64,000 bases of DNA, taken from Bacteroidia bacterium. Its GTDB lineage: Bacteria > Bacteroidota > Bacteroidia > AKYH767-A > OLB10. A model generated the notes under the pieces. The model did not search any database, was not told where the DNA came from, and saw nothing but the letters and a program-made list of their open reading frames with translations. Every line of letters starts with the position of its first letter. The stretch's first letter is position 1. Shown piece by piece: positions 3,160 through 18,738 of the stretch. A program made the translations under genes and the position numbers. The stretch is from NCBI GenBank assembly GCA_038206385.1, contig JBBRAW010000003.1, positions 17,211 to 81,210 of the forward strand, written 5' to 3'.

Positions 3160-3879
3160 ATGGAATTAAAAAACCCTGGTGCAGTAATTGAAAATAGCAT
3201 TAGAATGAAATTGATGAACGATTTCTTCACTAATTTCGGACATGCAGAAGTTTTACTCGACTTAGGTTGTGGTGCGAGACCTTATTACGAATGTTACGCC
3301 TCACATTTTGATCGTACGATAGGTGCTGATCTAGCTGATTCCCCTTTCCCTAAAAAACAAATAGATATATATTGCTTCGCAACCAATGTTCCTTTGCCTG
3401 ATGAAAGTGTGGATGTAATTTTATGCACAGAAGTACTACAGGACATAGCTGAACCCAATGATCTGATTAAAGAAGTTAAGCGACTATTAAAACCAAACGG
3501 AATATTAGTGTTAACAGTTCCATTTCTCGTTCCCATTGCAGATGGTATCTATGATCATAACAGATTTACTATTCACGGATTAAAATATCAGTTGACGAAA
3601 GGTGGTTTTGCCGTTCAAGAATTAATTCCAGTTTCAGATACATTTGGTGTGGCCATAACCTTATCGGTAAAACCAATACTCAAACTTTGGAATATCATTT
3701 CGAAAGCACTTCACATAAAGCTAATTTATAAATGGTTTAATCCATTATTATTCATAACCGTAATATTACCGCAAATAATTTATTTAGCAACAAAACAGTT
3801 ACCACTATTTAAACAATTATACAATCGTTTTAACTATGGTCCAATTGGCTATGTAAGCATCTCTAAGAAATTAAAATAA
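3160..3879 (+). CDS. class I SAM-dependent methyltransferase
   Basis: Motif I 'LLDLGCGARPY', acidic motif II 'DVILCTEVL', 'LKPNGILVLTVP'. Confidence 0.75.
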   Translation: MELKNPGAVIENSIRMKLMNDFFTNFGHAEVLLDLGCGARPYYECYASHFDRTIGADLADSPFPKKQIDIYCFATNVPLPDESVDVILCTEVLQDIAEPNDLIKEVKRLLKPNGILVLTVPFLVPIADGIYDHNRFTIHGLKYQLTKGGFAVQELIPVSDTFGVAITLSVKPILKLWNIISKALHIKLIYKWFNPLLFITVILPQIIYLATKQLPLFKQLYNRFNYGPIGYVSISKKLK

Positions 3880-4985
3880 TGTCAAGAATTAAAGTACTGC
3901 ATATTTTATGGTCAGCATCTATGGGCGGAATTGGCCGTGTAGTTATTAACTTATGCAATGCTCAACTTAGAAATGATCACCTTTCAATTGGTGTTCTTGT
4001 AGCGAAATCAGAAGGAGAATTGTTACCTCAATTAAAAACACTTGGAATAAAAATTCATGAACCTGGATTCATAAAAGGAAATGACAAAAGTAAAGAAGTG
4101 TTGTTAAATTGCAAAAAAACTTTTGAAGAATACGACATACTTCACTTTCATTCATTCAATCCTTCATTAGCTAAACTCGCAGTAAAAAGTAAAAAGAAAA
4201 TAATTTATACGGAACATGGCAATTTCGCTTTTGGAAGAAAGATGACCATAAAAGATTATATTGTTCGCTATTTTCAACAAATTTTTTTGAATAAGCAAGT
4301 AAATTTTATCACCTTCAATTCAGAGTTTTCAAAAAACACTTCCTTGAAAAGATTTGGATTGCAAAAAGTGAAAAACAAAGTTGTTTATAACGGTTGTGCT
4401 GATTTAAAAAAATCATTAAGCATAAATAATTTTCAACGTACCAAAGATGAAATCCTAATCACAACTATTGGTAGATTAGCAATTGTTAAAAGAATTGATC
4501 GATTACTTAATGCGTTTTCACTTTTTGATCACCACAACACCAGACTGCTTATCGTTGGTGAAGGTCCATTAAAGGAAGAACTAGAAAATATTTCAAGAGA
4601 AAAAGATATTACAAAAGATACTGTCTTTACTGGAATAAAAGATTCACAATCTATACTTCAAATTTCCGATATTTGTGTGTTTCCATCTCAAAATGAAGCT
4701 TTTGGTTTAGTCGCCATTGAAGCATATCAACAAGGAAAGCCAGTGATAGTATTTGCTGATGGTGGCGGACTTCCAGAATTGGTAAATCAAATAGAACCAG
4801 AATTGATTGTTAATTCGGAAAGTGAATTAGCAATATTACTTGAAAAAATGATAAAAGAAATTAACTTGTTTAATACTGACGAAAAAATTATACTAAGAAA
4901 AACTTTCGCCAGAAAATTTACTATTGAAAAAATGGAGTCTGAATTATACAGTATTTATAGCGAAGTGTTCAATGTGCGGAATTAA
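3879..4985 (+). CDS. glycosyltransferase family 4
   Basis: GT-B/GT4 C-terminal signature 'EAFGLVAIEAYQQGKPVIVFADGGGLPELV'. Confidence 0.85.
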   Translation: MSRIKVLHILWSASMGGIGRVVINLCNAQLRNDHLSIGVLVAKSEGELLPQLKTLGIKIHEPGFIKGNDKSKEVLLNCKKTFEEYDILHFHSFNPSLAKLAVKSKKKIIYTEHGNFAFGRKMTIKDYIVRYFQQIFLNKQVNFITFNSEFSKNTSLKRFGLQKVKNKVVYNGCADLKKSLSINNFQRTKDEILITTIGRLAIVKRIDRLLNAFSLFDHHNTRLLIVGEGPLKEELENISREKDITKDTVFTGIKDSQSILQISDICVFPSQNEAFGLVAIEAYQQGKPVIVFADGGGLPELVNQIEPELIVNSESELAILLEKMIKEINLFNTDEKIILRKTFARKFTIEKMESELYSIYSEVFNVRN

Positions 4986-6876
4986 CGGCTTATTTATTCT
5001 TAATGGAAGAATGCTTGCTGATGGAAATGAACTCATCAGTAAAATGAATTATTGCATTCGTCACCGCGGGCCAGATGATACTGGAATTTGGTCGGATGCA
5101 GAACGAGGAATTTTTCTTGGACATCAACGATTAAGTATCATCGATCTATCATCAACAGGTCATCAACCAATGCTCGATGGATTTGGTAATGCAATCGTTT
5201 TTAATGGTGAAATTTATAATTACAAATCTCTAAAGTCAGAAATAAAGGATTATCATTTTAAATCGGAAAGTGATACAGAAGTTTTGTTAAACTTATATGC
5301 AAAAAAAGGTCACAGTACATTAGAAGATTTAAATGGTATGTTTTCATTTTCATTTTGGAATAAGGAAAAAGAAGAATTACAATTAGCAATAGATCGCGCT
5401 GGGAAAAAACCACTTTATTACAGCACAATCAATGGTATATTTGCTTTTTCATCAGAAGTGAAATCTTTACTTTCATTGCCATGGATAAAAGCTAAATTAG
5501 ATGACGAGGCATTATATCATTTTTTAACTTTCAATCAACTAAGTGCACCGCAAACAATGTTTGAGGGGATCAATAAACTGGAGCCAGGATATTTACTCAC
5601 TGTAAATAAAAATGGAATTAAAGAACATCGAAAATATTGGGATGTAAATTATTCTGATTATCGAAAATTAAATGAAAAACAATTATGTGATAAAGTATTT
5701 GATGAGTTAACAAAAGCAGTAGATTACAGAATGGTATCTGATGTTCCAGTAGGTGCATTCCTTAGTGGTGGTGTCGATTCAAGTGCCGTAGTAGCACTGA
5801 TGCGAGCAAAAAGTACATCTACAATTAAAACATATTCTGTAGGGTTTGAAGGGCAACCAGATTACGATGAAAGAATTTATGCGCAACAAATTTCAAAACA
5901 ATTTAATACAGAACATTTTGAAAAAATTGTAAGTCCAAATGATATTGCAGAGTTTCTTCCAAGAATAGTAGACATTTTTGATGAGCCTATGGCAGATTCT
6001 ACATGCATTCCAATTTATTTTATCTCACAATTAGCAAAACAAAATGGAACTATTGTAGTTCAAACTGGTGATGGCGCAGATGAACTCTTTGCAGGTTATC
6101 GAGGTTGGATGAAATATGAACAACTGTATCCTTGGTATCATCGGTATCAATTACTACCATCAATAATAAAAAACAGTATTGCAACGTTAGCAAGTGCGGA
6201 ACAAAAAGAATCTGTTAATGCTGAAATATTACAAAGAGCTGCTCATGATCAAGAATTTTTTTGGGGTGGAGCAAAATCTTTCAAAGAACATACGAAGCGT
6301 AGTTTCTTAACTAATGAATGGTCATTGAAATTAAAAAATGTTGACTCCTATTCTATCATTAAAAAAGTAAGATCTCAATTTAGTGAATTGCAAAAATCAA
6401 ATCCACAACTAGGAGATTTAGATTGGATGTGTTATCTTGGTTTCAAACAACAAATTCCTTGGAAGTATTTATACAGGATGGATCGTATTGGAATGAGTCA
6501 TGGTATTGAAATTAGAAATCCTTTTTTAGATTTCAATATGGTTAACTTAGCACTTTCGATTCCATCAAAATTTAAGATCGAGAATGGTGAACCAAAGTAC
6601 ATTTTAAAGAAATCTCTAGAACGTATTCTTCCGCATGAAATATTATATAGAAAAAAAATGGGGTTCTGTGTACCATTACGTGAATGGTCAGGCGATATCA
6701 TGTTGGAATATGTAGAAAGTAATTTACATGAATTTTGTAGTAACACAGGAATATTTAATGAATCTGGATTGCGAAAAAATATTGAAGAGATTAGAAAAGG
6801 AAATACAAAGTACACGAATAACCTTTGGACAATTTATTTTTTAATTGCTTGGTTTAAGAAATGGATGTCGGCGTAA
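4972..6876 (+). CDS. asnB: asparagine synthase (glutamine-hydrolysing), polysaccharide-locus amidotransferase type
   Basis: 'MCGINGLF' N-terminal Cys nucleophile. PP-loop 'SGGVDSS'. AsnB C-terminal region. Start trimmed to Met-Cys at 4972; overlaps upstream stop. Confidence 0.9.
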   Translation: MCGINGLFILNGRMLADGNELISKMNYCIRHRGPDDTGIWSDAERGIFLGHQRLSIIDLSSTGHQPMLDGFGNAIVFNGEIYNYKSLKSEIKDYHFKSESDTEVLLNLYAKKGHSTLEDLNGMFSFSFWNKEKEELQLAIDRAGKKPLYYSTINGIFAFSSEVKSLLSLPWIKAKLDDEALYHFLTFNQLSAPQTMFEGINKLEPGYLLTVNKNGIKEHRKYWDVNYSDYRKLNEKQLCDKVFDELTKAVDYRMVSDVPVGAFLSGGVDSSAVVALMRAKSTSTIKTYSVGFEGQPDYDERIYAQQISKQFNTEHFEKIVSPNDIAEFLPRIVDIFDEPMADSTCIPIYFISQLAKQNGTIVVQTGDGADELFAGYRGWMKYEQLYPWYHRYQLLPSIIKNSIATLASAEQKESVNAEILQRAAHDQEFFWGGAKSFKEHTKRSFLTNEWSLKLKNVDSYSIIKKVRSQFSELQKSNPQLGDLDWMCYLGFKQQIPWKYLYRMDRIGMSHGIEIRNPFLDFNMVNLALSIPSKFKIENGEPKYILKKSLERILPHEILYRKKMGFCVPLREWSGDIMLEYVESNLHEFCSNTGIFNESGLRKNIEEIRKGNTKYTNNLWTIYFLIAWFKKWMSA

Positions 6877-6877
6877 A

Positions 6878-8014
6878 ATGAAAAAAATACTGCTGATAAC
6901 TAATATTCCCAACCCATATCGGGTTCCATTATTCAATGTTCTAAAGGAGCAAATGATGAAAGAGCAATTCCATCTAAAAGTTGTATTTGCTTCTGCTGGA
7001 TACAATAGGAGATATTTTAAATTATCTTCTAACGATTTTAACTTCGATCATGTAATTCTTAACGGAGCTACAATAAGCTCTTCAAAAGATTCAGAGAAAA
7101 CCTATTTTTTGTATAAAGGACTTTGGAAATTATTACGAAGTGAAAGGCCAAATAAGATAATCGTATCAGGGTTTTCATCTGCAACAATGATGGTATTTCT
7201 ATGGCGAATTCTTACAGGAACGAAATATATTATTTGGTCAGGATCAATAGAAAAAGAAAATAGAAATTCTACAATTTTTCGTACACTTCAACGAAAATTT
7301 CTTTGTTCATTGGCAAGTGCCTTTGTTGTTTATGGATCGAAAGCAAAAGAATATCTCCAAAAATATGGTGCAAAAGAAAACAAAATCGCAGTAGCCATTA
7401 ATACAGTTGATACCGATTTTTTCCATACAGAAACAGCGAGATTAAGAAATGAAAATAAAAAAATAGATAGTCCAATTACGTTTACTTATTTAGGTTATTT
7501 AGTGCCAAGAAAAAATGTGATACTTTTACTCGAAACGATAAAAATTGTTTCAAAAAGTAGAACAAATTTTCAACTTGATATTATTGGAGAAGGTTCTTCT
7601 AAAGTAGATTTAGAGAAGTATGTTCAAGAAAATGAACTCTCCTCCATCATAAAGTTTCATGGTTTTAAACAAAAAGAAGAAATACCTGCTTTCTTTGCAA
7701 AAAGTAACGCTCTTTTATTCCAAACAGATTTCGACATTTGGGGATTGGTTTTAAATGAAGCTATGGCAGCTGGAATAACTTGTTTATCCTCTATAAATGC
7801 AGGAGCAACATTCGATCTTATCCAAAATGGAGTTAATGGATATTCTGTTGATTTTAATGATAAAAATGCAATCGCCACCAAGATAATCAGTATCATTGAT
7901 AGTCCAGAATTAGCAATGAAAATGGGGGAACAAGCTGCTGCATTTATACGTACAAATGCTACTCTTACTACATCATCAAAAGGATTTATCAATGCACTAA
8001 GGTTGGCAGAATAA
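6878..8014 (+). CDS. glycosyltransferase family 4
   Basis: GT-B fold. 'GLVLNEAMAAGITCLSS' E-x7-E-like region. Likely start MKKILL at 6878. Confidence 0.75.
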   Translation: MKKILLITNIPNPYRVPLFNVLKEQMMKEQFHLKVVFASAGYNRRYFKLSSNDFNFDHVILNGATISSSKDSEKTYFLYKGLWKLLRSERPNKIIVSGFSSATMMVFLWRILTGTKYIIWSGSIEKENRNSTIFRTLQRKFLCSLASAFVVYGSKAKEYLQKYGAKENKIAVAINTVDTDFFHTETARLRNENKKIDSPITFTYLGYLVPRKNVILLLETIKIVSKSRTNFQLDIIGEGSSKVDLEKYVQENELSSIIKFHGFKQKEEIPAFFAKSNALLFQTDFDIWGLVLNEAMAAGITCLSSINAGATFDLIQNGVNGYSVDFNDKNAIATKIISIIDSPELAMKMGEQAAAFIRTNATLTTSSKGFINALRLAE

Positions 8015-8020
8015 TATATT

Positions 8021-9295
8021 ATGAAAATTAAGGATTGGATTAAATGGTACAAGAGTTTACACATATCACGAAAGTGGTTTGTAATTCTAGTATTATTACG
8101 ACCAATCATTGATAGTTTTTATGGTCTCAAAGAATCATCAGCTTTAGCAAGCCCGTTATACATCGTTGGAGCATTAACCCCGTTTTTAGTTGTTGGTAGT
8201 TTCATGTCTCATAAATTTCCAAGAAAAAATAAAACATTTCAAGATATTCCGATGTCAATCTGGGCAATCTTTGTGGCATTTAATTGTTTAATATTTTATT
8301 TCATTGATTTATCGGTTGTCGCATTTGGTGATTTAATTAAATATTGCACTCCCTTTATTCTTTACTTCTACTGTAGAAGATTCGTACAATCACGACAAGA
8401 TATGCTTGGACTATTAACCGCGTTTATGATTGGTTGTACGTATCCATTCTTCATGTTACTTTATGAATCAATAATCAATCCTATCGGAATTGATTATCTA
8501 AGTGCGGGACGAGGCGGAGGATCTCGGATTCGTGGCGAATATGCCGATATTATGAATTACGCAATTTATCTCGCAGCATTTTTAATTGCCATGGGATATC
8601 TGTATTTAAGATCCATTTATGAAAAAGGAATTACGATCAAGATAAAACCAATTTATCTTATCATAACATTAATATTTGTCCTTTATGGTTTAACAAGAAT
8701 CAAACATGTATCCACTTGGACTGTTGCATTATTTTGCTTTGTACTTTTTATGTTTCACAACTTAAAAAATGTTAAAGGTATTGCAATGGTATTTGCATTA
8801 ATGATTGTGATATTACCATTTTTTGCTGAAGATATTTATATAGCAGAAATTCAACCATTAATTAATAAAGAAATTCTAGTTGCAAAAGGGGAACGTGACT
8901 CTCAACAAGCATTAAATGGTAGAGTGAATAGATGGGAAAAATATATTGAAATATGGGAACAAATGCCAGCGATTAATCACTTTATTGGTGTAACAACTTC
9001 GAATTTTCCTGAAACTGATGCTATGATAAGCGCTGGAATGCACAGTGATTATATTCGTCTACTTTTTCTAAGCGGATTCATTGGATTAGGATTTTATCTG
9101 CTATCCATCTTTTTCATTGCATCTAATTATTTTGAATTACGAATACCAGAAAAATTTCTATTAGCTGCAAGTGTTAGCGCACTTGTTTTATGGTCGGTAA
9201 GTACAATACCTACTTTGTATGCTCCATTACTCTACTTTACTTATCCTATTTTTGCTTACGCATTACTTCCAAAAGAAAGACAATACATCAATTAA
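8021..9295 (+). CDS. O-antigen polymerase/ligase-like (Wzy family) polytopic membrane protein
   Basis: About 10-12 predicted TM helices with a large periplasmic loop; sits between GTs in a polysaccharide locus. Confidence 0.55.
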   Translation: MKIKDWIKWYKSLHISRKWFVILVLLRPIIDSFYGLKESSALASPLYIVGALTPFLVVGSFMSHKFPRKNKTFQDIPMSIWAIFVAFNCLIFYFIDLSVVAFGDLIKYCTPFILYFYCRRFVQSRQDMLGLLTAFMIGCTYPFFMLLYESIINPIGIDYLSAGRGGGSRIRGEYADIMNYAIYLAAFLIAMGYLYLRSIYEKGITIKIKPIYLIITLIFVLYGLTRIKHVSTWTVALFCFVLFMFHNLKNVKGIAMVFALMIVILPFFAEDIYIAEIQPLINKEILVAKGERDSQQALNGRVNRWEKYIEIWEQMPAINHFIGVTTSNFPETDAMISAGMHSDYIRLLFLSGFIGLGFYLLSIFFIASNYFELRIPEKFLLAASVSALVLWSVSTIPTLYAPLLYFTYPIFAYALLPKERQYIN

Positions 9296-10395
9296 TGAAG
9301 CGTAAAGTTGTTCTTATTTTGGGTAAAGTTCCACCACCGTATATGGGACCGTCAATCGCAACAGAAATTCTTTTGAAATCTGGATTGAATAATAATTTTA
9401 ATTTAATTCATGTTGATACAAAAGTAAATGCTGATTTAAAAGATATTGGTAAATGGAGTTTTGAAAAAATAAAAAATTATTATATCATTTGGAAAAGATT
9501 GATTGAAAAAATTAAAACGCATCAACCAGATTTAGTTTTAATTCCAATTAGTCAAAGCACAATTGGTTTTTTAAAAGATTCTATTTTTATTTTGATAGCA
9601 AAGTTTTATAAACGTAAGACATTATTACATCTTAGAGGTAGTGATTTTAGAAATTGGTTGATTAAAACCAATAAAATAAATCAGTGGTATGTGCGTACAT
9701 GTTTAAATACTACTAATGGAATAATTGTTTTAGGCAATAACCTCCGACCTGTTTTTAAAAATCTATTTGCTGATGATAAAATATTTGTAGCACCAAATGG
9801 AGGTAATTATTTAATTCCGTCAAGAACTAGAGAAAGCAATATTCTCCGAATTCTTTATCTTGGTAATCTTCAATCATCAAAAGGTATCGAAGATGTAATT
9901 GATGCCTCAGTAATTTTACAAAAATCGCACGCTAATAAATTCGAGTTAGAAGTAATTGGTGGCTGGCGAAAAGATGACATCAAGCAAAAGTGTTTAAGAA
10001 TTATTGATGATAATAATCTACCAGTTCACTTCACACCTCCTGAATTAAGTAAAAATAAATTGCAAGAATTAAGTAATGCTGATATCTTCGTATTTCCACC
10101 CCGAGAACCTGAAGGACATCCTTGGGTAATTATTGAAGCAATGGCTGCTAGTTTACCAATAATAAGTACCGATCAAGGGGCAATAATAGAATCCGTCCAA
10201 GAAGGAAAGAATGGATTTATTGTTCCATCTGCAAATCCAAAAAGTATCGCCGAGAAAATGGCTATTCTTATCGATAACGAAGAATTAAGGCAACGAATGG
10301 GCGTTGAAAGTCGTAAAAGTTACGAAGCTAAATTCACAGAAAAAGTTATGGTAGAAAACTTATCGAGAATATTTAATATTGTAATTTCACAATAA
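9295..10395 (+). CDS. glycosyltransferase family 4
   Basis: 'REPEGHPWVIIEAMAASLPIISTDQGAIIESV' GT4 signature. Start MKRKVV at 9295 overlaps upstream stop. Confidence 0.8.
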   Translation: MKRKVVLILGKVPPPYMGPSIATEILLKSGLNNNFNLIHVDTKVNADLKDIGKWSFEKIKNYYIIWKRLIEKIKTHQPDLVLIPISQSTIGFLKDSIFILIAKFYKRKTLLHLRGSDFRNWLIKTNKINQWYVRTCLNTTNGIIVLGNNLRPVFKNLFADDKIFVAPNGGNYLIPSRTRESNILRILYLGNLQSSKGIEDVIDASVILQKSHANKFELEVIGGWRKDDIKQKCLRIIDDNNLPVHFTPPELSKNKLQELSNADIFVFPPREPEGHPWVIIEAMAASLPIISTDQGAIIESVQEGKNGFIVPSANPKSIAEKMAILIDNEELRQRMGVESRKSYEAKFTEKVMVENLSRIFNIVISQ

Positions 10396-10400
10396 AATTT

Positions 10401-12530
10401 ATGGATCAACTAACGCAGAATTTAAAAGATGGAGCTATGCAATTGCTTGAGGTTCCATTTCCTGCTTTAATGCCAGGACAAATTCTTGTGCGTAACCATT
10501 TTTCATTGATCAGTGCAGGTACAGAAGGAAAAACTGTGAAAGATGCTCGCTTAGGTTATATCGCTAAAGCGAGAGCGCGTAGTGAGGAGGTAAAAAAAGT
10601 AATTCAATCTGCTAAAACAAATGGTTGGCTGGATACTTATAAAATGGTGATGAATAAATTAGATGCTCCATCATCATTAGGTTACAGTTGCGCTGGTGAA
10701 GTAATCGCTGTAGCAAATGATGTTCGTGGTTTTCAATGCGGAGATTTAGTTGCCTGCGGTGGTGGAACTGCTGTTCACGCAGAAGTGATTGTTGTACCCG
10801 TTAATCTATGCGTGAAATTAAAAGCGAATACTGATTTACGTCAAGCTGCATTTACAACTGTTGGTGCAATTGCACTTCAAGGTATTCGTCAAGCGGATGT
10901 ACGTTTAGGAGAAAGCTGTGTAGTTATTGGACTAGGATTAGTTGGTCAGCTAACAATTCTTTTACTAAAAGCATCAGGCATAAAAGTGATTGCAATTGAT
11001 ATTGATTCAGCACAAGTAATTAAAGCAAATGAAATTGGTGCTGATCTCGCTGTCGATCGTAAAAATGAAAATTTAGAAGATCAAGTTTCGCATCTTACAA
11101 ATGGATTTGGTGCTGATGCAATTATCATCACAGCAAGTACCAACTCAAATGATCCTATAGAACTTGCAGGGAAATTAGCTCGACAAAAAGGAAAAGTAAT
11201 TATAGTTGGTGCTGTTCCAACTGGATTCAGTCGTAAGAATTATTATATAAAAGAATTAGATCTTCGAATGTCATGTTCGTATGGTCCTGGTAGATATGAT
11301 AGTGATTACGAAGAGAAAGGTATCGATTATCCAATCGGCTATATTCGTTGGACAGAGAATCGCAACATGCAGGCTTTCGCGGATCTTGTTAGCAACGGTA
11401 CACTAGATTTAAATAAAATCATTTCGCACGAATTTACATTTCAAGATGCACCAAATGCATATCAAATGATTCTTGATAAAACAGAATCGTTTGCTGGTAT
11501 TCTTTTAAAATATGATTTATCAAAAGAATTAAAAAAACGTGTTCAACTTTCTATTCAATCTCTATCAGCATCAGAACCAGCATTAGCATTTATTGGTGCA
11601 GGATCATTCGCACAAAATATGTTGCTGCCGAATTTACAATCGAAAGCAAAGTTTATTGGAATAAGCACTGCTCGTCCTAATAATGCAAAATATATTGCGG
11701 ATAAATATCATTTTGACTATTGCACAAATAATACAGAAGAAATATTTAATGATGATAAAGTAAATACGGTATTTATAGTTACTCGTCATAATTCTCATTT
11801 TGAATATGCATTGAAGGCTTTACAAAACAAGAAAAATGTTTTTGTGGAAAAGCCTCTTTGCATGAATGAATCGGAGTTAGATGAAATAAAAAATGCATGG
11901 TCATCATCCGGAAAAATTTTGATGATCGGTTTCAATAGAAGATTTGCTCCACTAATTACCAAAATAAAAAGTACTTTAAATAGTGATTTTCCTATTGCAA
12001 TAAATTATCGAATCAATGCAGGAATAATTGCTCCCGATCATTGGACGCAAGATCCAAAAATAGGTGGTGGAAGAATCATCGGTGAAGTTTGTCATTTTAT
12101 TGATCTTTGCAGATACTTAACAGGGTCCGCAATCAGAAGTGTTTCTGCAACGGCGATGAAATCAGCCGCAAATACGGAAGACACAATTATTGTACAATTA
12201 CAATTTGAGAATGGAAGCATTGCAAATATCTCTTATTTTGCAAATGGCAATAAAGAACTTTCAAAAGAATATTTAGAAGTATTTAGCTCAGGAACAGTAT
12301 TTCAATTGGATGATTTCAAAACATTATCTGTATTTGGTAAATCAAAAAGTATTCACAAAGTATCATCGCAAGATAAAGGACATAAAGCGGAACTAGATGC
12401 GTTTTTAAATTCAATAAGCAAAGGAAGTCCTGCTCCTATTCCATTTGAAGAATTATATGAAAGTATGCTCGTTACTTTTAAAGCAATAGAATCTATTCGC
12501 AATAACGGATCGAACATTTTAATTTCCTAA
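10401..12530 (+). CDS. bi-domain oxidoreductase: Zn-dependent alcohol dehydrogenase (MDR) domain fused to Gfo/Idh/MocA oxidoreductase domain
   Basis: N-terminus has GroES-like + Rossmann 'VIGLGLVGQ'. C-terminus has a second Rossmann 'FIGAGSFAQNMLLPNL' and a Gfo/Idh/MocA C-terminal alpha/beta domain. Confidence 0.8.
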   Translation: MDQLTQNLKDGAMQLLEVPFPALMPGQILVRNHFSLISAGTEGKTVKDARLGYIAKARARSEEVKKVIQSAKTNGWLDTYKMVMNKLDAPSSLGYSCAGEVIAVANDVRGFQCGDLVACGGGTAVHAEVIVVPVNLCVKLKANTDLRQAAFTTVGAIALQGIRQADVRLGESCVVIGLGLVGQLTILLLKASGIKVIAIDIDSAQVIKANEIGADLAVDRKNENLEDQVSHLTNGFGADAIIITASTNSNDPIELAGKLARQKGKVIIVGAVPTGFSRKNYYIKELDLRMSCSYGPGRYDSDYEEKGIDYPIGYIRWTENRNMQAFADLVSNGTLDLNKIISHEFTFQDAPNAYQMILDKTESFAGILLKYDLSKELKKRVQLSIQSLSASEPALAFIGAGSFAQNMLLPNLQSKAKFIGISTARPNNAKYIADKYHFDYCTNNTEEIFNDDKVNTVFIVTRHNSHFEYALKALQNKKNVFVEKPLCMNESELDEIKNAWSSSGKILMIGFNRRFAPLITKIKSTLNSDFPIAINYRINAGIIAPDHWTQDPKIGGGRIIGEVCHFIDLCRYLTGSAIRSVSATAMKSAANTEDTIIVQLQFENGSIANISYFANGNKELSKEYLEVFSSGTVFQLDDFKTLSVFGKSKSIHKVSSQDKGHKAELDAFLNSISKGSPAPIPFEELYESMLVTFKAIESIRNNGSNILIS

Positions 12531-12531
12531 T

Positions 12532-13725
12532 ATGAGTGATCCGTTAAAACAAAAATACATTCATAAATCGCTAGAAGAATTACAACGCTATATTGAAGCT
12601 GAAGGATTTAAAGGTTATGATCCGTATGATACTTTAACGAGTACAGTTCCTTTTCATGTACTTGGAAAGTGGGGACCCATCATTGCAACACAAATTCAAA
12701 AACGTAATCCATTTAATATTCGAAAATTAATTGGAATTAAAAAAGATTACAATCCGAAAGGACTTGGATTACTGTTACATTCTTATGCAATTCTTCAACA
12801 AAAATTTCCTGAACGTTCTTATAAAAAACAATTAGAAGAACTTTATAAACTGATTCTAGAAAAAAGAACTTTAGGGTATAACGGAACATGCTGGGGTTAT
12901 AATTTTGGATGGGCTAGTCCAGTGAAATATTTAAAACCCTATGCGCCAACAATAGTTGTTACAGCATTTATTGCAAAAGGATTATATGCCTATTTCAAAG
13001 TCAGTAATAAAGAAGAAATAAAGGAATTATTGCTTTCAATTGCACCTTTCATTTTAAAAGATTTACCACATACTATTACCGATGATGGTGTATGTATTAG
13101 CTATAGCACATCAATGCCCGACTGTTGTTATAATGCATCCTTATTAGCTGCGGAAACATTAGCGATACTTTTTAATTTAGATCCAAATCCGAAATACAAA
13201 CAACTTGCATTGGAAGCAATTCGCTTTGTAATTAATCATCAACATTCGGATGGACATTGGGGTTATAGTTTAAATATTAAAACGGCAAAAGAACGTAAAC
13301 AAACAGATTTTCATCAAGGATTTGTTTTAGAATCTATTTGGAATATCACGCAATTGTTAAATCATTCTGATGCTGCAATTACAAAATCATTGCAATCAGG
13401 AATTGATTTTTATGTTCCTAAACAATTTAGTAAAGTAGGTCGTTCGTATTGGAGATTACCATCAAAGTATCCCACCGATATTCACCATCAAGCACAAGGA
13501 ATTATCACACTTGCAAGGATGTCGAAATTTGCTCCAGCGTATGCAATATTTGGAAAAACAATTGCAGCGTGGACGATAGAAAATATGCAAGATCCTTATG
13601 ATGGACATTTCTATTTTAAGAAAATGAGATTTTACACAAACAAGATTTCATTTATGCGTTGGGGACAAGCATGGATGTTTTTAGCACTCGCAGAAATAAT
13701 TCAACCTGAACAAAAATCATTATGA
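12532..13725 (+). CDS. hypothetical polysaccharide-modifying enzyme (alpha/alpha-toroid-like; heparinase II/III-like or glucuronyl C5-epimerase-like)
   Basis: Position after the bi-domain oxidoreductase, as in Bacteroidota capsule loci. Trp/His-rich motifs 'GHWGYSLN', 'HQGFVLESIW'. No definitive signature. Confidence 0.4.
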   Translation: MSDPLKQKYIHKSLEELQRYIEAEGFKGYDPYDTLTSTVPFHVLGKWGPIIATQIQKRNPFNIRKLIGIKKDYNPKGLGLLLHSYAILQQKFPERSYKKQLEELYKLILEKRTLGYNGTCWGYNFGWASPVKYLKPYAPTIVVTAFIAKGLYAYFKVSNKEEIKELLLSIAPFILKDLPHTITDDGVCISYSTSMPDCCYNASLLAAETLAILFNLDPNPKYKQLALEAIRFVINHQHSDGHWGYSLNIKTAKERKQTDFHQGFVLESIWNITQLLNHSDAAITKSLQSGIDFYVPKQFSKVGRSYWRLPSKYPTDIHHQAQGIITLARMSKFAPAYAIFGKTIAAWTIENMQDPYDGHFYFKKMRFYTNKISFMRWGQAWMFLALAEIIQPEQKSL

Positions 13726-14762
13726 AACGATTTCTGATTTACATGGGACATCCTGCTCATTTTCATCTTTTCAAGAATACGATTTCAATTCTTCGTGAGC
13801 AAAATCATGAAGTAGAAATATTGATTAAGAAAAAAGATATTCTGGAAGATTTACTTCGTAATAATGGATGGGCATACACAAATATTAATCCTAAAGGTCG
13901 TGGTGATAGTAAGTTTGCGATTGCTTGGTCACTCCTAAAACGTGATGTAGAATTTTTTAAAGTAGCGAAGCGTTTCAAGCCAGATTTAATGATTGGAACA
14001 TCGGCAGAGATAACACATATTGGAAAACTATTAAACATTCCGTCGATTGTAGTTAATGAAGATGATGCCGCCATTGTTCCACTATTTGCAAAACTTGCTT
14101 ATCCATTTGCTTCAGCGGTTCTTGCTCCTAACTGTTGCGATTGTGGCAAATGGGAATCGAAAAAAATTGGTTACGAAAGCTATCATGAATTAGCTTATTT
14201 ACATCCTGATCATTTCACTCCCGATTTATCAATAGTTAGAAAATATATTCAAGAAGAACATTATTTTATTCTTCGCTTTGCAAAACTTACTGCGCATCAT
14301 GATGCTGGTCGTTCAGGAATAAATTTAGAGATTGCAAAAAAAATTATTGAACTGCTTTCACCAAAAGGAAGAGTTTATATTACCTCCGAACGTGAGCTTG
14401 AAAAAGAATTAGAACCTTATCGTATTGCAATAAATCCTTTGCACATTCATCATGCAATGGCCTTTGCTGATTTATACATTGGCGACTCTCAAACGATGGC
14501 TGCAGAAGCCGCTGTGCTCGGAACTCCTTCGTTACGATTCAATGACTTTGTTGGCGAAATAGGATATCTCGAAGAACTAGAACATCGTTATGGATTAACA
14601 TTTGGCATCCGCACAAATAATGTGATAGGATTTTTTCACAAACTCAACGAATTAATTCTTGATTCCGATTTAAAATCAACATGGATACAAAGACAAAATA
14701 AAATGCTTGCTGAAAAAATAAATTTGGCAACCTATATGGCTGACCTTTTTATTAATTATTAG
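13722..14762 (+). CDS. DUF354 family protein (GT-B/epimerase-like) of polysaccharide loci
   Basis: N-terminus 'MKRFLIYMGHPAHFHLFKNTI' is typical of DUF354. Last gene of the co-directional array. Confidence 0.55.
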   Translation: MKRFLIYMGHPAHFHLFKNTISILREQNHEVEILIKKKDILEDLLRNNGWAYTNINPKGRGDSKFAIAWSLLKRDVEFFKVAKRFKPDLMIGTSAEITHIGKLLNIPSIVVNEDDAAIVPLFAKLAYPFASAVLAPNCCDCGKWESKKIGYESYHELAYLHPDHFTPDLSIVRKYIQEEHYFILRFAKLTAHHDAGRSGINLEIAKKIIELLSPKGRVYITSERELEKELEPYRIAINPLHIHHAMAFADLYIGDSQTMAAEAAVLGTPSLRFNDFVGEIGYLEELEHRYGLTFGIRTNNVIGFFHKLNELILDSDLKSTWIQRQNKMLAEKINLATYMADLFINY

Positions 14763-14878
14763 AGATAGTTTGGTGAATTAGCAAGTCGATATTTATTTGA
14801 AATAGCGCCTAACATTTTTCATAAGCGATTCTTAGATTATATTACAATTTGGATTTCGTTTTTAGCGTATGAAATCTT

Positions 14879-16381
14879 TTATTTGAACACTACCAATCTT
14901 TTAGTTGATATTGCATTCCCAGAAGTAACACTAATAAAATAAACGCCATCGTGTAATTGTGGTAAATTCAAATCCTGCATGGTACTCCATGTTGGTAAAT
15001 TCATTTGATAAATCTTTTCACCCATTAAATTTCGAATAGTTAGAATACCATTTTGATTTTGCGGCATCAGATAACTTACTCTAAAATTTCCATCATGAAC
15101 AGGATTGGGCTTAACAGAAAGATTTTTAATTGAAGACAGCTCATAAATTCCTACATGCGATAAAGTATCACACGCACTTCCAATAACAGGCCCTAAATAA
15201 TAATTAGGATGATAAACATTACCCCTTGCTGAATAACAAGGAATTCGTAAAGCGTGTTGACGCATATCGCAGGAGATGCCATCACTATCGGGTTTATTAA
15301 TGTAATTTAAATCAATATTACCACTTCCTGAAGTAACATATATTTTCCCTTTCGCAGCAAGGTATCCATACCAGAAATTTGTACAGGTAAAGCTAAATGG
15401 ATAACAATAATTATCCTCAATTGCAATTGTGTCCAAACTAGCAGCAATATCAGATGTATCTGTGTTTACTTGAAACAAAGTGTTAAAGCTTCCAAAATAA
15501 ATATATTTAGAATTAGGCGAAAATGCAATACAAAAACCACCTACTGGTGAAAGAATTTTTACTGTTTGCGGATTTGAAAACATTCCAGTACAACGATCAA
15601 AATCCAATATTCTTAAATTGTGGGTTCCTTGTCCACTGTTTAGATATTTAATGCTGTAAGTAAAATTATTTCCGTCAGGAGAAAACTGAACACTACCAGC
15701 AAAGAAATATGGCGCAGGTAAACCAGTATGCTGAGAAGTAATGGAACTAATTCCAGAAGGTGTTAATAATACTTTATAAATTAGATCACTGTTGTGTGAT
15801 GTAACTACAATCCACCAGTCCCTTCCATTAGCATGCTTGCAAACTCCAATACCGGAATTTAAAGAATCTTGCAATTCAATAACATTTTTTTGTGTTACTG
15901 CACCAAGTCCACCATTTAACGTTTTATCGACAATGGTATAAAAGAGTTGATCCCACAAAGTATTATCAATATCATCAGATGTCTAGTGAAATAAAATATA
16001 TTTTGTACTGTCTCCTGGATAGGGTAAAAAAACGGATGTATTTGTTACAGGCAAGCCAATACTACACCAGCTATCTGCAAAAGCACCTGGATTTAAACTA
16101 TCACCGTTTAACATTATATTATTTGATGCATCAGCAATGTAGCAACCATTAGTATACATCAACAAGTTTCCATTTTCATCTGAAATATTTACTTGTACAC
16201 CTCCGAAAGACATTGCAAAAGAAGCTGGGGAAACATTTAACGAAGTATCAGCGAACCCCAAAATGGCCCTTGTGCTGGTTACATTGGTATTAATGCCAGT
16301 ATAACCAATCAGCCAGTTATGATTTAGTCCTTGTGTAAGAAGATTATTATACTGATTTATTAGGATCAGTACAATAATCAA
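14879..16381 (-). pseudogene. T9SS C-terminal sorting domain cargo protein interrupted by a single in-frame TAG (15983-15985)
   Basis: ORFs 15983..16381 and 14879..15958 are in the same frame (423 nt apart), separated only by TAG. Downstream ORF has no ATG (TTG). C-terminus 'GVYFISVTSGNAISTKRLVVFK' is a T9SS type-A sorting domain. Confidence 0.6.
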
Positions 16382-16477
16382 TTTGGAAATATGCTATAGT
16401 TTCAATGGTTAATTAGGAATCTTGATTTTATGATTGTTAAGATAATAAGTTCAATTGTATTGAAAGGGAATTGTAGT

Positions 16478-16735
16478 GAACAATTCCGATAGCTATCGAA
16501 ATGAAGGATTACTATGATTTGCAGGATTAATTTATCTTGAACACGATTTGCAGGATTACTATGATTTGCAGGATTAATTTATCTTGAACAGTTCCGATAG
16601 CTATCGGAATTATAGGATTACTGTGATTTGCAGGATTAAAATAATTAAAAATATTCATCTACGTCCGTCCTTTGAAGGGCGAAGGGTAGGCCTTTATCTT
16701 GAACAGTTTCAATAGCTACCGGGAATGAAAGAATA
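16478..16735. repeat. degenerate ~50-60 bp tandem repeat block (3-4 units) with GATAGCTATC palindromes and 5x 'gatttgcaggatta' sub-repeats
   Basis: Direct reading: units begin 'ttatcttgaaca(a/g)ttccgatagctatcg...'. Perfect 18-bp palindrome 'ttccgatagctatcggaa' at 16602-16619. Confidence 0.8.
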
Positions 16736-16886
16736 AGTTTTAACCCTTACCCATAATTTTAATTTGTTAAGCAAAAATAAACATCTTAAATTTGTGAAAC
16801 TTCATTAATGCAAGTCATAAATTATATTTAAATTGTGCCTATGGAACTTAAATTACTACTTAATATAACTCATTAAAATAAAACAA

Positions 16887-17129
16887 ATGACATTTCAATT
16901 TATTCATGATGACAGAGGAAACACCACCGGCGTATTTATTCCAATTGAGGAATGGCAATCATTAAAGGCAAAATATACCGATTTACAAAAAGAAGAAGCT
17001 GAAAATGTAGTAGATCTTTCCACTTTTCAAAAACAAATTATTGATGAGCGCTTAAACGATTACTATAAAAATTCTGACAATGTTTTCAACTTTGATAAAA
17101 CAATTGATGACATCGAAAACAATCTATGA
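16887..17129 (+). CDS. putative antitoxin (addiction-module component) of a ParE/RelE-type pair
   Basis: 80-aa acidic protein. 4-bp overlap (ATGA) with the downstream ParE-like ORF. Confidence 0.5.
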   Translation: MTFQFIHDDRGNTTGVFIPIEEWQSLKAKYTDLQKEEAENVVDLSTFQKQIIDERLNDYYKNSDNVFNFDKTIDDIENNL

Positions 17130-17425
17130 GCTATACTTTTGTAAACAGACCGGATGTAGGCACTGATATAATTACAATAACCGATTATTATAAAAACATA
17201 AATCCAGAACTTGCCAAACAATTTTTGTTTCGTATTCGTGAAGCCAAAAAATATATTGCAAAATCTCCTTTGGGGTTTCAGGTAAAGTATAAAGAGGTGC
17301 GAACGCTTTTATTAAAATAATTTCCATATCACATTCATTACCTTATTGTAGAAAGCAAAAACCAAATCATCATTCTTGCCATCATTCACGCTTATAAAAA
17401 TCCTGCGGATTTATCAAATAGATAA
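17126..17425 (+). pseudogene. ParE/RelE-family toxin gene with in-frame TAA at 17318-17320
   Basis: N-terminal 64 aa match the ParE pattern (D..I..Y......P..A..F...I......P..G). After the TAA, 34 more in-frame codons give 'YHIHYLIVESKNQIIILAIIHAYKNPADL' (ParE C-terminal Y.I.Y.V....I.I..I.H..R.P). Full length 99 aa. Confidence 0.6.
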
Positions 17426-17465
17426 TTACATTACAGCCCCGTTTTGCAAGATCAATTTCTTTAGC

Positions 17466-17540
17466 TATTTTTTAAATGCTTGCCGAAAAAATTAATTTAG
17501 CAAAGTATATGGCTGATCTTTTTATAAAATATTAGAGATA
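17466..17540 (+). other. diverged duplicate of the last 19 codons + stop of the DUF354 gene (compare 14704-14775)
   Basis: Translates MLAEKINLAKYMADLFIKY* versus native MLAEKINLATYMADLFINY*. About 85% nt identity over ~70 bp, followed by similar 'attagagata'. Confidence 0.75.
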
Positions 17541-17604
17541 ATATTATCAACTTGTCCTAACGAACAAAGGCAACCTCTCGGTTGCCTTTGCTGTAGTGAT
17601 TCAG

Positions 17605-18738
17605 TTAAACATTCACGAGGAATAACTCTTTCAGTGTTTCAACGCAATAATCTAATTCTTCTTTTGTATTGTATCTGCTAAATGAAAAACGTATTGCAGG
17701 ACGATCAGGGCTTGATTGAATTCCAGTTAAAACATGCGACCCAACATTTGTTCCCGAAGTACATGCGCTACCTGCTGAACAAGCAATGCCTGCAATATCT
17801 AAATTGAACAATAACATTTCCGAAATATCAGTAGGAGGAAATGATACATTTAAAACAGTGTACAAACTATTATCAGTAACATCACCATTAAATTCAATTC
17901 CTGAAATTTCATTTACTAAACGATCATGCATATAAGTCTTCAATCCTTTGATGTATTGAAGATCATGATCAATATTTTCATAAGCTATTTCTAAAGCTTT
18001 CGCAAGACCAACAATACCGTAAACATTTTCAGTACCGCCACGCATGTTACGCTCTTGCGCACCACCAGTAATGAAAGGCTTTATTTTAATTCGGTTGTTG
18101 ATGTATAAAAATCCTACTCCTTTTGGTCCGTGAAATTTATGTGCAGCACAGGTAACAAAATCTATTGGAAGCGTTGAAAGATCATGCGTAAAGTGACCCA
18201 TTGTTTGTACTGTATCCGAATGAAAAACGGCATCGTACTTTCTACATATTTCACCAACTTGTTGTAATGGCAATAGTGTTCCTATCTCATTGTTCGCATG
18301 CATCAAGGAAACTAACGTGCGATCATTTTCTTTTAAAAGTTTTTCGAGATCAGCTAAGTCAACATGACCTTGATCATCTACTTTTACTAAACTTAATTTT
18401 ATTTCTCCACGATGTGCGAGATCTTCTAGTGTATGCAAAACTGCATGATGCTCGAGCGGAGATGTAATAGCATGCTTGATTCCTAAATCATGAATACAAC
18501 ATCGCAATGCCATATTGTTTGCTTCCGTTCCTCCAGAAGTGAAAAATAATTCGGAGGGAGTAGTCTTGAGTAATTGTGCTACTTTTTTACGTGCAGTTTC
18601 AAGAGCAGAACGAACCTCTCGTCCAAAAGCATGAATAGATGAAGGATTACCAAATTGATTACGCATCATTGGTATCATCGTTTCTACTACTTCAGGGTGT
18701 ATTGCAGTAGTAGCTGCATTATCGAGATAGATTTTCAT
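17605..18738 (-). CDS. cysteine desulfurase (class V aminotransferase, IscS/NifS-like)
   Basis: 'MKIYLDNAATTAIHPEV', PLP lysine region 'HKFHGPKGVGFLY', active-site Cys loop 'SAGSACTSG'. Confidence 0.9.
   Translation of the reverse strand: MKIYLDNAATTAIHPEVVETMIPMMRNQFGNPSSIHAFGREVRSALETARKKVAQLLKTTPSELFFTSGGTEANNMALRCCIHDLGIKHAITSPLEHHAVLHTLEDLAHRGEIKLSLVKVDDQGHVDLADLEKLLKENDRTLVSLMHANNEIGTLLPLQQVGEICRKYDAVFHSDTVQTMGHFTHDLSTLPIDFVTCAAHKFHGPKGVGFLYINNRIKIKPFITGGAQERNMRGGTENVYGIVGLAKALEIAYENIDHDLQYIKGLKTYMHDRLVNEISGIEFNGDVTDNSLYTVLNVSFPPTDISEMLLFNLDIAGIACSAGSACTSGTNVGSHVLTGIQSSPDRPAIRFSFSRYNTKEELDYCVETLKELFLVNV

What the first reader, a model, noticed from the sequence alone, without database searches (positions are those of the whole stretch)
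14763..17540. ~2.7-kb insertion at the 3' end of the polysaccharide locus, bounded by a duplicated gene end and carrying two nonsense-interrupted genes
The last 19 codons + stop of the DUF354 gene (14704-14765) are repeated in diverged form (~85% nt) at 17466-17540 (MLAEKINLAKYMADLFIKY*). A diverged second copy of a gene's 3' end is how integrative elements that target gene 3' ends leave the host gene intact. The segment between contains a T9SS cargo gene with an in-frame TAG, a tandem-repeat block and an antitoxin/ParE pair whose toxin has an in-frame TAA. This would be an old, decaying integrated element with its addiction module and cargo undergoing pseudogenisation. No integrase remains.
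Basis: partly seen in the sequence, partly recalled or inferred. Interest (0 to 1): 0.55.

Follow-up and report, generated by a model that had tools for sequence, protein, structure and literature searches.

The report
Strain-variable insert with displaced gene end
A 2.7-kb strain-specific insert sits between the last gene of a polysaccharide locus and a housekeeping gene, with the old end of the polysaccharide gene left behind next to it. It is really two pieces, a small toxin-antitoxin cassette and a separate secreted-protein gene, both now broken: an ordinary small genomic islet, not a new kind of element.

Summary
The last 19 codons, the stop and 5 further bases of the DUF354 gene (14701-14767) recur at 17474-17540 with 59/67 identity. 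The local alignment score is 51, against 14±1.7 in shuffles. Five of the seven changed codons are synonymous, so the two copies are distinct alleles of a coding end, not one copy decaying in place.

Relatives show this is an insertion. In eight loci representing four distinct relatives, DUF354 directly faces the cysteine desulfurase gene; one of these relatives (L089-L092) is 87% identical in DNA.

The insert is composite:
- A sister strain (L093, 94% nt) carries only the repeat block and the antitoxin/ParE pair, with ParE intact. It has the same right junction and its own displaced gene end, and no T9SS gene.
- Two other close strains (L081, L094) carry a different T9SS paralog (29% aa) right after DUF354.

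Each stop codon in the window is consistent with a single C→T change: CAA→TAA in ParE, and probably CAG→TAG in the T9SS gene.

No integrase is present in the insert, whether in the window or in L093. There is no compositional signal, and no other copy was found.

The most likely mechanism is a single crossover within the gene's last ~60 nt, bringing in a DNA that carried its own copy of the gene end. Recombinational displacement of the gene end is a serious rival.

Verdict: partly supported, a new member of a known kind, of modest interest.

The parts
13722..14762 (+). DUF354-family gene, the last gene of the polysaccharide locus. It is intact at 346 aa, and its last residues (…LFINY*) belong to copy A.
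   Evidence: PF04007 match, E=1.4e-10. It has 96% aa identity to P0001. Within the same 90% protein cluster the C-terminal 3-9 residues vary between strains: INY, VKY, ENY, VKF, NDFPNRN, NDFPNRS.
14701..14767 (+). Copy A of the repeat: the last 19 codons, the stop and 5 nt of the functional gene.
   Evidence: Family D3.
14774..16530 (.). Segment present in the window but absent from sister strain L093. It holds the T9SS gene with its flanks and the first repeat units. The right edge is approximate because it lies inside the repeats.
   Evidence: Homology between L093 and the window stops at 14773 and resumes inside the repeat block.
14879..16381 (-). T9SS cargo pseudogene of 500 codons with an in-frame TAG at 15983-15985. 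It starts with TTG, and its N-terminus has no positively charged residues.
   Evidence: Por_Secre_tail match at residues 425-498. The in-frame stop is shown. Homologs are about 505-520 aa and have Q at the stop position in 4 of 6.
16470..16735 (.). Block of modular direct repeats. It contains 43-47-nt units and an 18-nt palindrome, TTCCGATAGCTATCGGAA. A version with a different number of units is present in L093.
   Evidence: There is no Rfam match. Among the fetched loci it occurs only at this place in L093.
16887..17129 (+). Antitoxin gene, 80 aa and intact. It overlaps the toxin start by 4 nt.
   Evidence: Weak RelB-like match, 19.5 bits against a cut-off of 27. It has 2 aa differences from the L093 copy.
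17126..17425 (+). ParE-family toxin pseudogene of 99 codons with an in-frame TAA at 17318-17320.
   Evidence: PF05016 match, 25.3 bits against a cut-off of 23. L093 has an intact 99-aa gene with CAA at that codon.
17426..17473 (.). Spacer between the ParE stop and copy B. It is homologous to the L093 spacer but only 69% identical, and it has no similarity to DUF354.
17474..17540 (+). Copy B: the displaced, non-functional gene end (MLAEKINLAKYMADLFIKY*). A TAA stop lies immediately before its ATG.
17565..17590 (.). Hairpin CAAAGGCAACC-TCTC-GGTTGCCTTTG between the convergent genes. In strains with an empty site it lies directly after the DUF354 stop.
   Evidence: Sequence. The same hairpin is in L089 and L093. 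The consensus terminator scan did not call it, because no T run follows.
17605..18738 (-). Class-V aminotransferase (cysteine desulfurase-like) gene. This is the conserved right-hand neighbour.
   Evidence: PF00266 match, E=2.6e-78. Synteny is shown.

Best explanation
The interval 14768-17473 is strain-specific DNA that entered the 3' end of the DUF354 gene. That gene ancestrally faced the cysteine desulfurase gene across a shared hairpin.

The insert has two parts:
1. A unit of about 1 kb, made of a repeat block and a RelB-like/ParE toxin-antitoxin pair. This unit is what the duplicated gene end brackets.
2. A T9SS cargo gene, which is a separate gain or loss between the gene end and the repeat block.

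Proposed mechanism (inferred): a DNA carrying its own copy of the last ~19 codons of DUF354 recombined once, reciprocally, with the chromosomal gene end. This would be Campbell-type integration, by a site-specific recombinase that acted in trans or has since been lost. The gene therefore kept a complete reading frame with a slightly different tail (copy A), and the resident tail was pushed 2.8 kb downstream (copy B).

The module has no recombinase of its own and is now decaying in this strain. ParE and the T9SS gene each carry one C→T nonsense change, while the antitoxin is intact.

Shown: the insertion, its composite nature, the allelic nature of the two tails and the recent inactivation. Inferred: the crossover mechanism and the mobility.
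For: - Empty sites exist. DUF354 and the desulfurase gene are 12-48 nt apart, with the same genes on both sides, in L001, L082, L083, L084-86 and in L089-L092, which are 87% nt identical to the window.
- The repeat exactly brackets the insert. Its score is 51 against a shuffle maximum of 20.
- Five of seven differing codons are synonymous (P about 0.003-0.008). The differing sites are polymorphisms shared with other strains, so A and B are two alleles, not a duplicate drifting in place.
- L093 has the same module without the T9SS gene. It has an intact ParE and the same right junction (homologous spacer, then AAATGC). Its displaced tail, however, is of the long type (…NDFVKRN*), like the tail of the empty-site strains, whereas the window's is of the short type (…IKY*). 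The same junction on two different resident tail alleles is what repeated integration at one site predicts.
- The junction zones are far more diverged between the window and L093 (62-80%) than the module (97%) or the flanks (94%).
- Any purely recombinational origin needs a donor in which DUF354 is natively followed by the TA pair. Every relative examined instead has the desulfurase gene on that side of the interval.
Against: - There is no integrase or other recombinase in the insert in the window or in L093, and the contigs of the other two strains with an insert end too early to tell.
- No identical core is shared by the repeats in both strains. The longest exact match is 11-12 nt in the window, at the stop codon, and that sequence is absent from L093.
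- No second copy of the module, the repeat block or the tail sequence was found elsewhere in the window, in 95 fetched loci or in viral contigs. The only plasmid matches to ParE are at 28% identity.
- Copy B resembles the functional tail of the nearest strain L081 over its whole length (90%, against about 85% for copy A). That fits 'B entirely resident, A entirely imported' better than reciprocal hybrids do.
- The module's 97% identity to L093 is not an outlier. 17% of flank windows of the same length are as similar, so there is no independent evidence of recent spread.
- The GC content of the insert (0.321) is like that of the polysaccharide locus (0.314).
Confidence: 0.5

Rival explanations
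1. Recombinational displacement of the gene end without any site-specific recombinase. In this reading, linear DNA from a related strain carried the 3' part of DUF354 plus downstream accessory genes. It recombined homologously inside DUF354 or the polysaccharide locus on the left and joined illegitimately at codon -19 of the resident gene on the right (homology-facilitated illegitimate recombination). This is the topology known from displaced C-terminal tips of Rhs/CdiA toxins and from displaced T6SS effector modules. Later homologous exchange among strains shuffled the contents.
For: - There is no recombinase in the insert in the window or in L093.
- The polysaccharide locus is a recombination mosaic: 84-100% identity to L081 in 200-nt windows. 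Divergence rises steadily toward the DUF354 3' end, from 96% to 82%, as if the imported tract extends upstream of copy A.
- Copy B is closest, over its whole length, to the functional tail of the nearest strain L081.
- The left edge of copy B is sharp, with only AAA/TAAA microhomology at the junction.
- The mechanism and its signature of displaced remnants are documented for Vibrio T6SS modules (PMC5361080) and for conjugation in E. coli (PMC3240628). Both papers are known here only from the title and abstract listing.
Against: - It needs a donor where the TA module natively follows DUF354 without the desulfurase gene next to it. All relatives from species to family level that could be read across the interval have the desulfurase gene on that side. 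With such a donor, the right crossover would be homologous and would leave no remnant.
- The window and L093 share the same right junction to the nucleotide but have different tail types in the remnant, short against long. That requires either two illegitimate events at the same base or an extra crossover within 50 nt or less of homology.
Confidence: 0.3
2. Local duplication of the gene end created at the moment of insertion, for example a long target duplication or template switching, followed by divergence in place.
For: The two copies are direct repeats that exactly flank the insert.
Against: - A non-coding copy drifting in place should accumulate mostly non-synonymous-type changes, since only 19% of possible substitutions are synonymous. 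Five of seven changed codons are synonymous.
- The variable sites are polymorphisms shared with other strains' functional tails.
- In L093 the two copies end in different tail types, ENY* and NDFVKRN*.
Confidence: 0.03
3. Assembly or binning artefact: a chimeric metagenome contig joined at a short repeat, with sequencing errors producing the two stop codons.
For: The source is apparently a metagenome-assembled contig. The truncated 359-aa ORF is on record from one 85,466-nt NCBI contig only. The stops cannot be checked against reads.
Against: - An independent assembly (L093, GCA_043758125.1) has the same architecture of DUF354 tail, repeat block, TA pair, displaced tail, hairpin and desulfurase gene.
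- Both flanks are collinear with L089 and L093 for many kilobases.
- The two stops could still be errors, but each is a clean C→T change at a codon that is otherwise conserved.
Confidence: 0.03

Closest known systems
Integrase-less remnants of integrative elements bounded by att repeats at a gene's 3' end (cis-mobilizable elements, CIMEs, described alongside ICEs and IMEs; PMC5704250 and PMC6323972, listed)
   Same: The insert sits at the 3' end of a protein-coding gene. It is bracketed by direct repeats made of that gene's end, and the gene stays intact because the incoming DNA supplies a replacement end. It has no recombination or transfer genes of its own and carries an addiction-type cargo.
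   Different: No related element with an integrase is known for this site. The repeats are 88% identical with no shared exact core, rather than identical att cores. The size is only about 1 kb (2.7 kb with the T9SS gene). Mobility is not shown.
C-terminal displacement, or sequential displacement of modules by homology-facilitated illegitimate recombination (Rhs/CdiA orphan tips, from my own knowledge; Vibrio cholerae T6SS effector-immunity arrays, PMC5361080)
   Same: A new gene end plus downstream genes replaces the resident end, which is left as a short orphan fragment immediately downstream. The extreme C-terminus of the protein differs between strains.
   Different: The gene is a polysaccharide-locus enzyme, not a polymorphic toxin. 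The displaced piece is only 19 codons and carries no function of its own. Only one displaced copy is present, not an array.
Chromosomal type II toxin-antitoxin cassettes (RelE/ParE superfamily) as small horizontally moving islets
   Same: It is a two-gene operon with the antitoxin first and a 4-nt overlap. It has a ParE_toxin domain. It is present or absent among close strains at one intergenic spot, and the toxin is the gene inactivated first.
   Different: Here the cassette comes with a recognisable junction signature, a duplicated gene end. I believe chromosomal TA insertions usually lack one; that is from my own knowledge and was not checked in the literature here.

Membership tests
Site-specifically integrated element (ICE/IME/CIME-type islet) at a gene 3' end | Present or absent among relatives at one site, with an intact 'empty' site elsewhere | tested here: met
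   Empty sites in L001, L082, L083, L084-86 and L089-92.
Site-specifically integrated element (ICE/IME/CIME-type islet) at a gene 3' end | Direct repeats (attL/attR) containing the target gene's end bracket the insert, and the target gene stays intact | tested here: met
   14701-14767 and 17474-17540 match at 88%, with score 51 against a shuffle maximum of 20. The DUF354 ORF is complete.
Site-specifically integrated element (ICE/IME/CIME-type islet) at a gene 3' end | Integrase or recombinase gene inside the element (required for ICE/IME, absent by definition in a CIME) | tested here: not met
   No such ORF lies in 14768-17473 or in the L093 insert. The only domains found are Por_Secre_tail, RelB-like and ParE.
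Site-specifically integrated element (ICE/IME/CIME-type islet) at a gene 3' end | An identical core (crossover) sequence shared by the two repeats and conserved between independent insertions | tested here: inconclusive
   The longest exact match is 11-12 nt in the window (TATTAGAGATA) and 20 nt at another position in L093. No core is common to both.
Site-specifically integrated element (ICE/IME/CIME-type islet) at a gene 3' end | Evidence of movement: the same element on different target alleles or sites, or an excised circle | tested here: inconclusive
   The same right junction occurs on two different resident tail types, in the window and in L093. No copy was found at any other site or in viral contigs. 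Circular forms cannot be tested with these tools.
Type II toxin-antitoxin system, ParE/RelE toxin with RelB-like antitoxin | Toxin matches the ParE_toxin family above the curated cut-off | tested here: met
   PF05016, 25.3 bits against a cut-off of 23, over residues 13-89. There is no NCBIfam match.
Type II toxin-antitoxin system, ParE/RelE toxin with RelB-like antitoxin | Small antitoxin gene immediately upstream, overlapping or abutting the toxin gene, with an antitoxin-family domain | tested here: inconclusive
   An 80-aa ORF overlaps the toxin start by 4 nt. Its RelB-like match is only 19.5 bits, below the cut-off of 27.
Type II toxin-antitoxin system, ParE/RelE toxin with RelB-like antitoxin | Both genes intact | tested here: not met
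   The window's toxin has a TAA at codon 65. The L093 copy is intact at 99 aa.
T9SS type A cargo protein | C-terminal sorting domain (Por_Secre_tail) at the extreme C-terminus | tested here: met
   PF18962, 37.4 bits against a cut-off of 27, over residues 425-498 of 500.
T9SS type A cargo protein | Intact reading frame with an N-terminal signal peptide | tested here: not met
   There is an in-frame TAG at codon 133. The only start is a TTG, and the N-terminus lacks the charged residues seen in homologs.
C-terminal displacement by homology-facilitated illegitimate recombination | Old gene end left as an orphan directly downstream of the incoming DNA, beginning with a stretch of conserved sequence | tested here: met
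   Copy B has a sharp left edge and a conserved first 50 nt.
C-terminal displacement by homology-facilitated illegitimate recombination | Existence of a donor arrangement in which the gene is natively followed by the incoming genes | tested here: not met
   Every relative that could be read across the interval has the desulfurase gene on the far side of it. The contigs of L081 and L094 end too early to tell.

The most novel reading that the evidence does not exclude
The last ~60 nt of this DUF354 gene may be a dedicated landing site for a family of very small cassettes without an integrase. The cassettes would carry a TA pair in one strain and different T9SS cargo genes in others. Each would bring its own replacement gene end and so rewrite the enzyme's last 3-9 residues. 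They would be moved by a recombinase encoded elsewhere, perhaps one that reads the modular repeats and palindromes at the cassette's left end as arm sites.
Probability: 0.12. Interest if true: 0.5.

Novelty: new member of a known kind. Interest (0 to 1): 0.27.

Why it matters
This is a clean, small example of how accessory genes accumulate at the border of a polysaccharide locus, with the junction scar still readable. That scar is rarely visible for chromosomal toxin-antitoxin cassettes.

It shows that what looks like one decaying element is really a hotspot with at least two independent contents. It also shows that the C-terminus of the last biosynthetic enzyme is rewritten each time.

It does not point to a new mechanism or protein family. 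Its value is mainly as a worked case, and as a caution against reading everything between two repeats as one element.

Tried and rejected
- **Composition.** GC content is 0.321 in the insert, 0.314 in the polysaccharide locus and 0.37 in the right flank, so there is no signal.
- **Recent spread of the module.** The TA module is 97.3% identical to L093, against 94% for the flanks (Fisher P=0.001). However, 17% of flank windows of the same length are as similar, so I do not count this as evidence of recent spread.
- **A longer remnant.** I looked for a more degenerate extension upstream of copy B. The alignment scores are at shuffle level in both the window and L093.
- **T9SS genes as element markers.** The nearest intact homolog of the window's gene (P0122, 62%) lies among housekeeping genes. 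The nearest homolog of the L081 paralog (P0248, 70%) lies at another chromosomal site in the same MAG as L093. The T9SS gene is therefore not a marker of an element.
- **The far side of the L081/L094-type insert.** The contigs end inside the T9SS gene, and no close full-length homolog is on record.
- **Exact look-ups of the window's own proteins.** These found nothing.
- **The metagenome scan with DUF354.** It gave only two loci, both empty sites.
- **Viral contigs and plasmids.** There are no relatives of the tail sequence or of ParE beyond 28% identity.
- **Rfam on 14000-18000.** There was no match.
- **Folding of the repeat block.** The z-scores of -2.4 and -3.2 reflect its palindromes and are not informative.
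- **Terminal inverted repeats around the L093 module.** Only AT-rich chance matches were found.
- **Consensus terminator and promoter scan.** Counts were at shuffle level.
Full report
**1. What is in the sequence**

The DUF354-family gene (13722-14762, + strand; PF04007) ends a long run of same-strand polysaccharide genes. Its last 19 codons, the stop and 5 further bases (14701-14767) recur at 17474-17540 with 59 of 67 bases identical and no gaps. The local alignment score is 51. In 300 dinucleotide-preserving shuffles of the downstream 2.8 kb the mean is 14.0, the sd 1.7 and the maximum 20.

The second copy reads MLAEKINLAKYMADLFIKY*, with a TAA immediately before its ATG. The 48 nt upstream of it have no detectable similarity to the gene, so its left edge is sharp.

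Between the copies lie four features:
- A minus-strand T9SS cargo gene (14879-16381) with a Por_Secre_tail match of 37.4 bits and an in-frame TAG at 15983-15985.
- A block of modular repeats (16470-16735).
- An 80-aa antitoxin gene (16887-17129) with a weak RelB-like match.
- A ParE gene (17126-17425) with a match of 25.3 bits against a cut-off of 23 and an in-frame TAA at 17318-17320.

To the right are a hairpin (17565-17590) and a convergent class-V aminotransferase (cysteine desulfurase-like) gene (17605-18738).

**2. It is an insertion**

The closest species-level genome in the GTDB set is L001, whose desulfurase is 78% identical. It has the same genes on both sides, with the DUF354 and desulfurase stop codons about 12 nt apart. 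The same direct adjacency is seen in L082, L083 and L084-86.

Most tellingly, L089-L092 are 87% identical to the window in DNA on both sides. There the DUF354 tail (…LFNDFPNRN*) is followed at once by the same hairpin and the desulfurase gene. In L089 a single 57-nt stretch aligns both to copy A, continuing leftward into the gene, and to copy B, continuing rightward into the hairpin and desulfurase gene.

**3. It is not one element**

The protein cluster of the window's DUF354 (at least 90% identity) has members with different extreme C-termini: INY, VKY, ENY, VKF, NDFPNRN and NDFPNRS. Their contexts differ.

- **L093** (94% nt identity to the window on both sides) has DUF354 ending …ENY*, then a repeat block with a different number of units, then the same antitoxin and an intact 99-aa ParE. 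Next come a 48-nt spacer homologous to the window's, a displaced tail reading MHAEKINLATYMAKLFNDFVKRN*, the hairpin and the desulfurase gene. It has no T9SS gene.
- Relative to L093, the window has an extra segment from 14774 to about 16530. This is the T9SS gene with its flanks and some repeat units.
- **L081** (95% nt over 11 kb) and **L094** lose all similarity to the window a few bases after the DUF354 stop. They carry instead a different T9SS paralog, only 29% identical in protein, that ends 6-7 nt after the stop. Their contigs end inside it.
- The T9SS family itself is large: more than 3,500 homologs, typically 505-520 aa. It is dispersed among housekeeping genes.

What the duplicated gene end brackets in both strains is therefore the repeat block plus the TA pair. 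The T9SS gene is a separate gain or loss.

**4. The two tails are alleles, not a duplicate decaying in place**

Of the seven codons that differ between copies A and B, five differ synonymously. Only 19% of all possible single substitutions in these codons are synonymous (P about 0.003-0.008). The variable sites are polymorphisms shared with the functional tails of other strains. In L093 the functional tail is of the short type and the displaced one of the long type, matching the tail of the empty-site strains. Incoming DNA thus supplied a replacement end, and the resident end was displaced.

**5. Decay is recent**

The window's ParE TAA corresponds to CAA in L093, a single C→T change. The T9SS TAG lies at a position that is Q in four of six homologs, so the change was most likely CAG→TAG. 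The T9SS gene also has only a TTG start and an N-terminus without the charged residues of its homologs. The antitoxin is intact. I could not check the stops against reads. The database holds the truncated 359-aa ORF from one 85-kb NCBI contig.

**6. Mechanism**

Two readings remain.

(a) A single reciprocal crossover within the gene's last ~60 nt, with a DNA that carried its own copy of that end. This is Campbell-type integration, normally the work of a site-specific recombinase.

(b) Recombinational displacement, with a homologous crossover inside DUF354 on the left and an illegitimate join at codon -19 on the right. This is the topology known for displaced toxin tips and T6SS modules (PMC5361080 and PMC3240628, seen).

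For (a):
- The window and L093 have the same right junction but different resident tail types in the remnant.
- The junction zones are much more diverged (62-80%) than the module or the flanks.
- Reading (b) needs a donor in which the TA pair natively follows DUF354 without the desulfurase gene. No relative that could be read across the interval shows this.

For (b):
- No recombinase is present in the insert in the window or in L093.
- No exact core is shared between the strains.
- The locus is a recombination mosaic, and divergence from L081 rises from 4% to 18% toward the gene's end.
- Copy B resembles L081's functional tail along its whole length.

I put (a) at about 0.5 and (b) at about 0.3. 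In-place duplication and assembly artefact are each about 0.03. L093 is an independent assembly with the same architecture, which argues against an artefact.

**7. Tests that did not discriminate**

GC content is 0.321 in the insert and 0.314 in the polysaccharide locus. The module's 97.3% identity to L093 exceeds the 94% of the flanks, but 17% of flank windows of the same length are as similar. No other copy of the tail, the repeat units or the TA genes was found in the window, in the 95 fetched loci, in viral contigs, or in plasmids beyond 28% identity. Rfam gave nothing.

**8. Comparison with what is known, and verdict**

The closest known kind is a small integrated islet bounded by att-like repeats at a gene's 3' end and lacking its own integrase. 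This is the cis-mobilizable-element situation described alongside ICEs and IMEs (PMC5704250 and PMC6323972). The cargo is an ordinary ParE-family TA pair.

Testing it as an ICE or IME fails on the integrase. As a CIME-like remnant it meets the presence/absence and flanking-repeat criteria, but the identical-core and mobility criteria are inconclusive. It works like C-terminal displacement in topology, whichever enzyme did it.

The insertion and its scar are real. The 'one old element with T9SS cargo' reading is not supported.

Novelty: a new member of a known kind. Interest: modest, at 0.27.

Noticed in passing
window 16470-16735; L093 7133-7363: A block of modular repeats lies between the T9SS gene and the TA operon. 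It contains units TTATCTTGAACA, the 18-nt perfect palindrome TTCCGATAGCTATCGGAA (two good copies and one degenerate) and GGATTACTATGATTTGCAGGATTAA. The number and order of units differ between the window and L093. In L093 the block starts about 10 nt after the DUF354 stop (at 7133). There is no Rfam match and no copy elsewhere in the window or in the 95 loci. It could be the TA operator or promoter region, or recombinase arm sites.
   Followed up: partly
window 14701-14762 and the same codons in L081, L089, L093, L094, P0245, P0247: The last 3-9 residues of DUF354 are hypervariable within one 90% protein cluster: INY, IKY, VKY, VKF, ENY, NDFPNRN, NDFPNRS. The preceding 13 residues (MLAEKINLATYMA) are nearly invariant. 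All four strains that have something inserted downstream (the window, L081, L093, L094) have a short tail on the functional gene. The long tail was found with the empty site (L089-L092), but the context of P0247, which also has a long tail, was not examined.
   Followed up: partly
window 3722-14771 versus L081 and L093: The polysaccharide locus is a fine-scale recombination mosaic. 200-nt windows range from 84% to 100% identity to L081, with several abrupt switches, for example 99.5% at 13122-13721 next to 84.5% at 12922-13121.
   Followed up: partly
window 12532-13725: A 397-aa ORF with no Pfam family lies immediately upstream of DUF354 and overlaps it by 4 nt. It keeps that position in every relative examined (56-96% aa identity). 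Its only family match is a faint one to squalene cyclases in NCBIfam. It is an uncharacterised, conserved partner of DUF354 in this locus type.
   Followed up: no
window 14879-16381; P0122-P0240, P0248-P0367: The T9SS cargo gene belongs to a very large family: more than 3,500 homologs at E≤1e-10, about 505-520 aa. It has an invariant CKHANGRDWW motif and many conserved cysteines. Its first ~420 residues have no Pfam domain apart from a sub-threshold PD40 match. Several paralogs occur per genome, at unrelated chromosomal sites.
   Followed up: partly
window 17565-17590; L089 11064-11091; L001 11125-11143: In this species group the convergent DUF354 and desulfurase genes share a GC-rich hairpin (CAAAGGCAACC…GGTTGCCTTTG). 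In more distant relatives (L001, L082-86) the two stop codons are 12-14 nt apart and there is no hairpin. After the insertion the functional DUF354 gene in the window has no recognisable terminator before the antisense T9SS gene.
   Followed up: no
window 17534-17564: Copy B's stop is followed by about 30 nt (AGATAATATTATCAACTTGTCCTAACGA) that replace the last 19 nt of the long-type tail seen in L089 and L093. Similarity resumes at CTAA, before the hairpin. This may be the native short-tail allele, or the scar of an earlier insertion that was later deleted. It is unresolved.
   Followed up: partly
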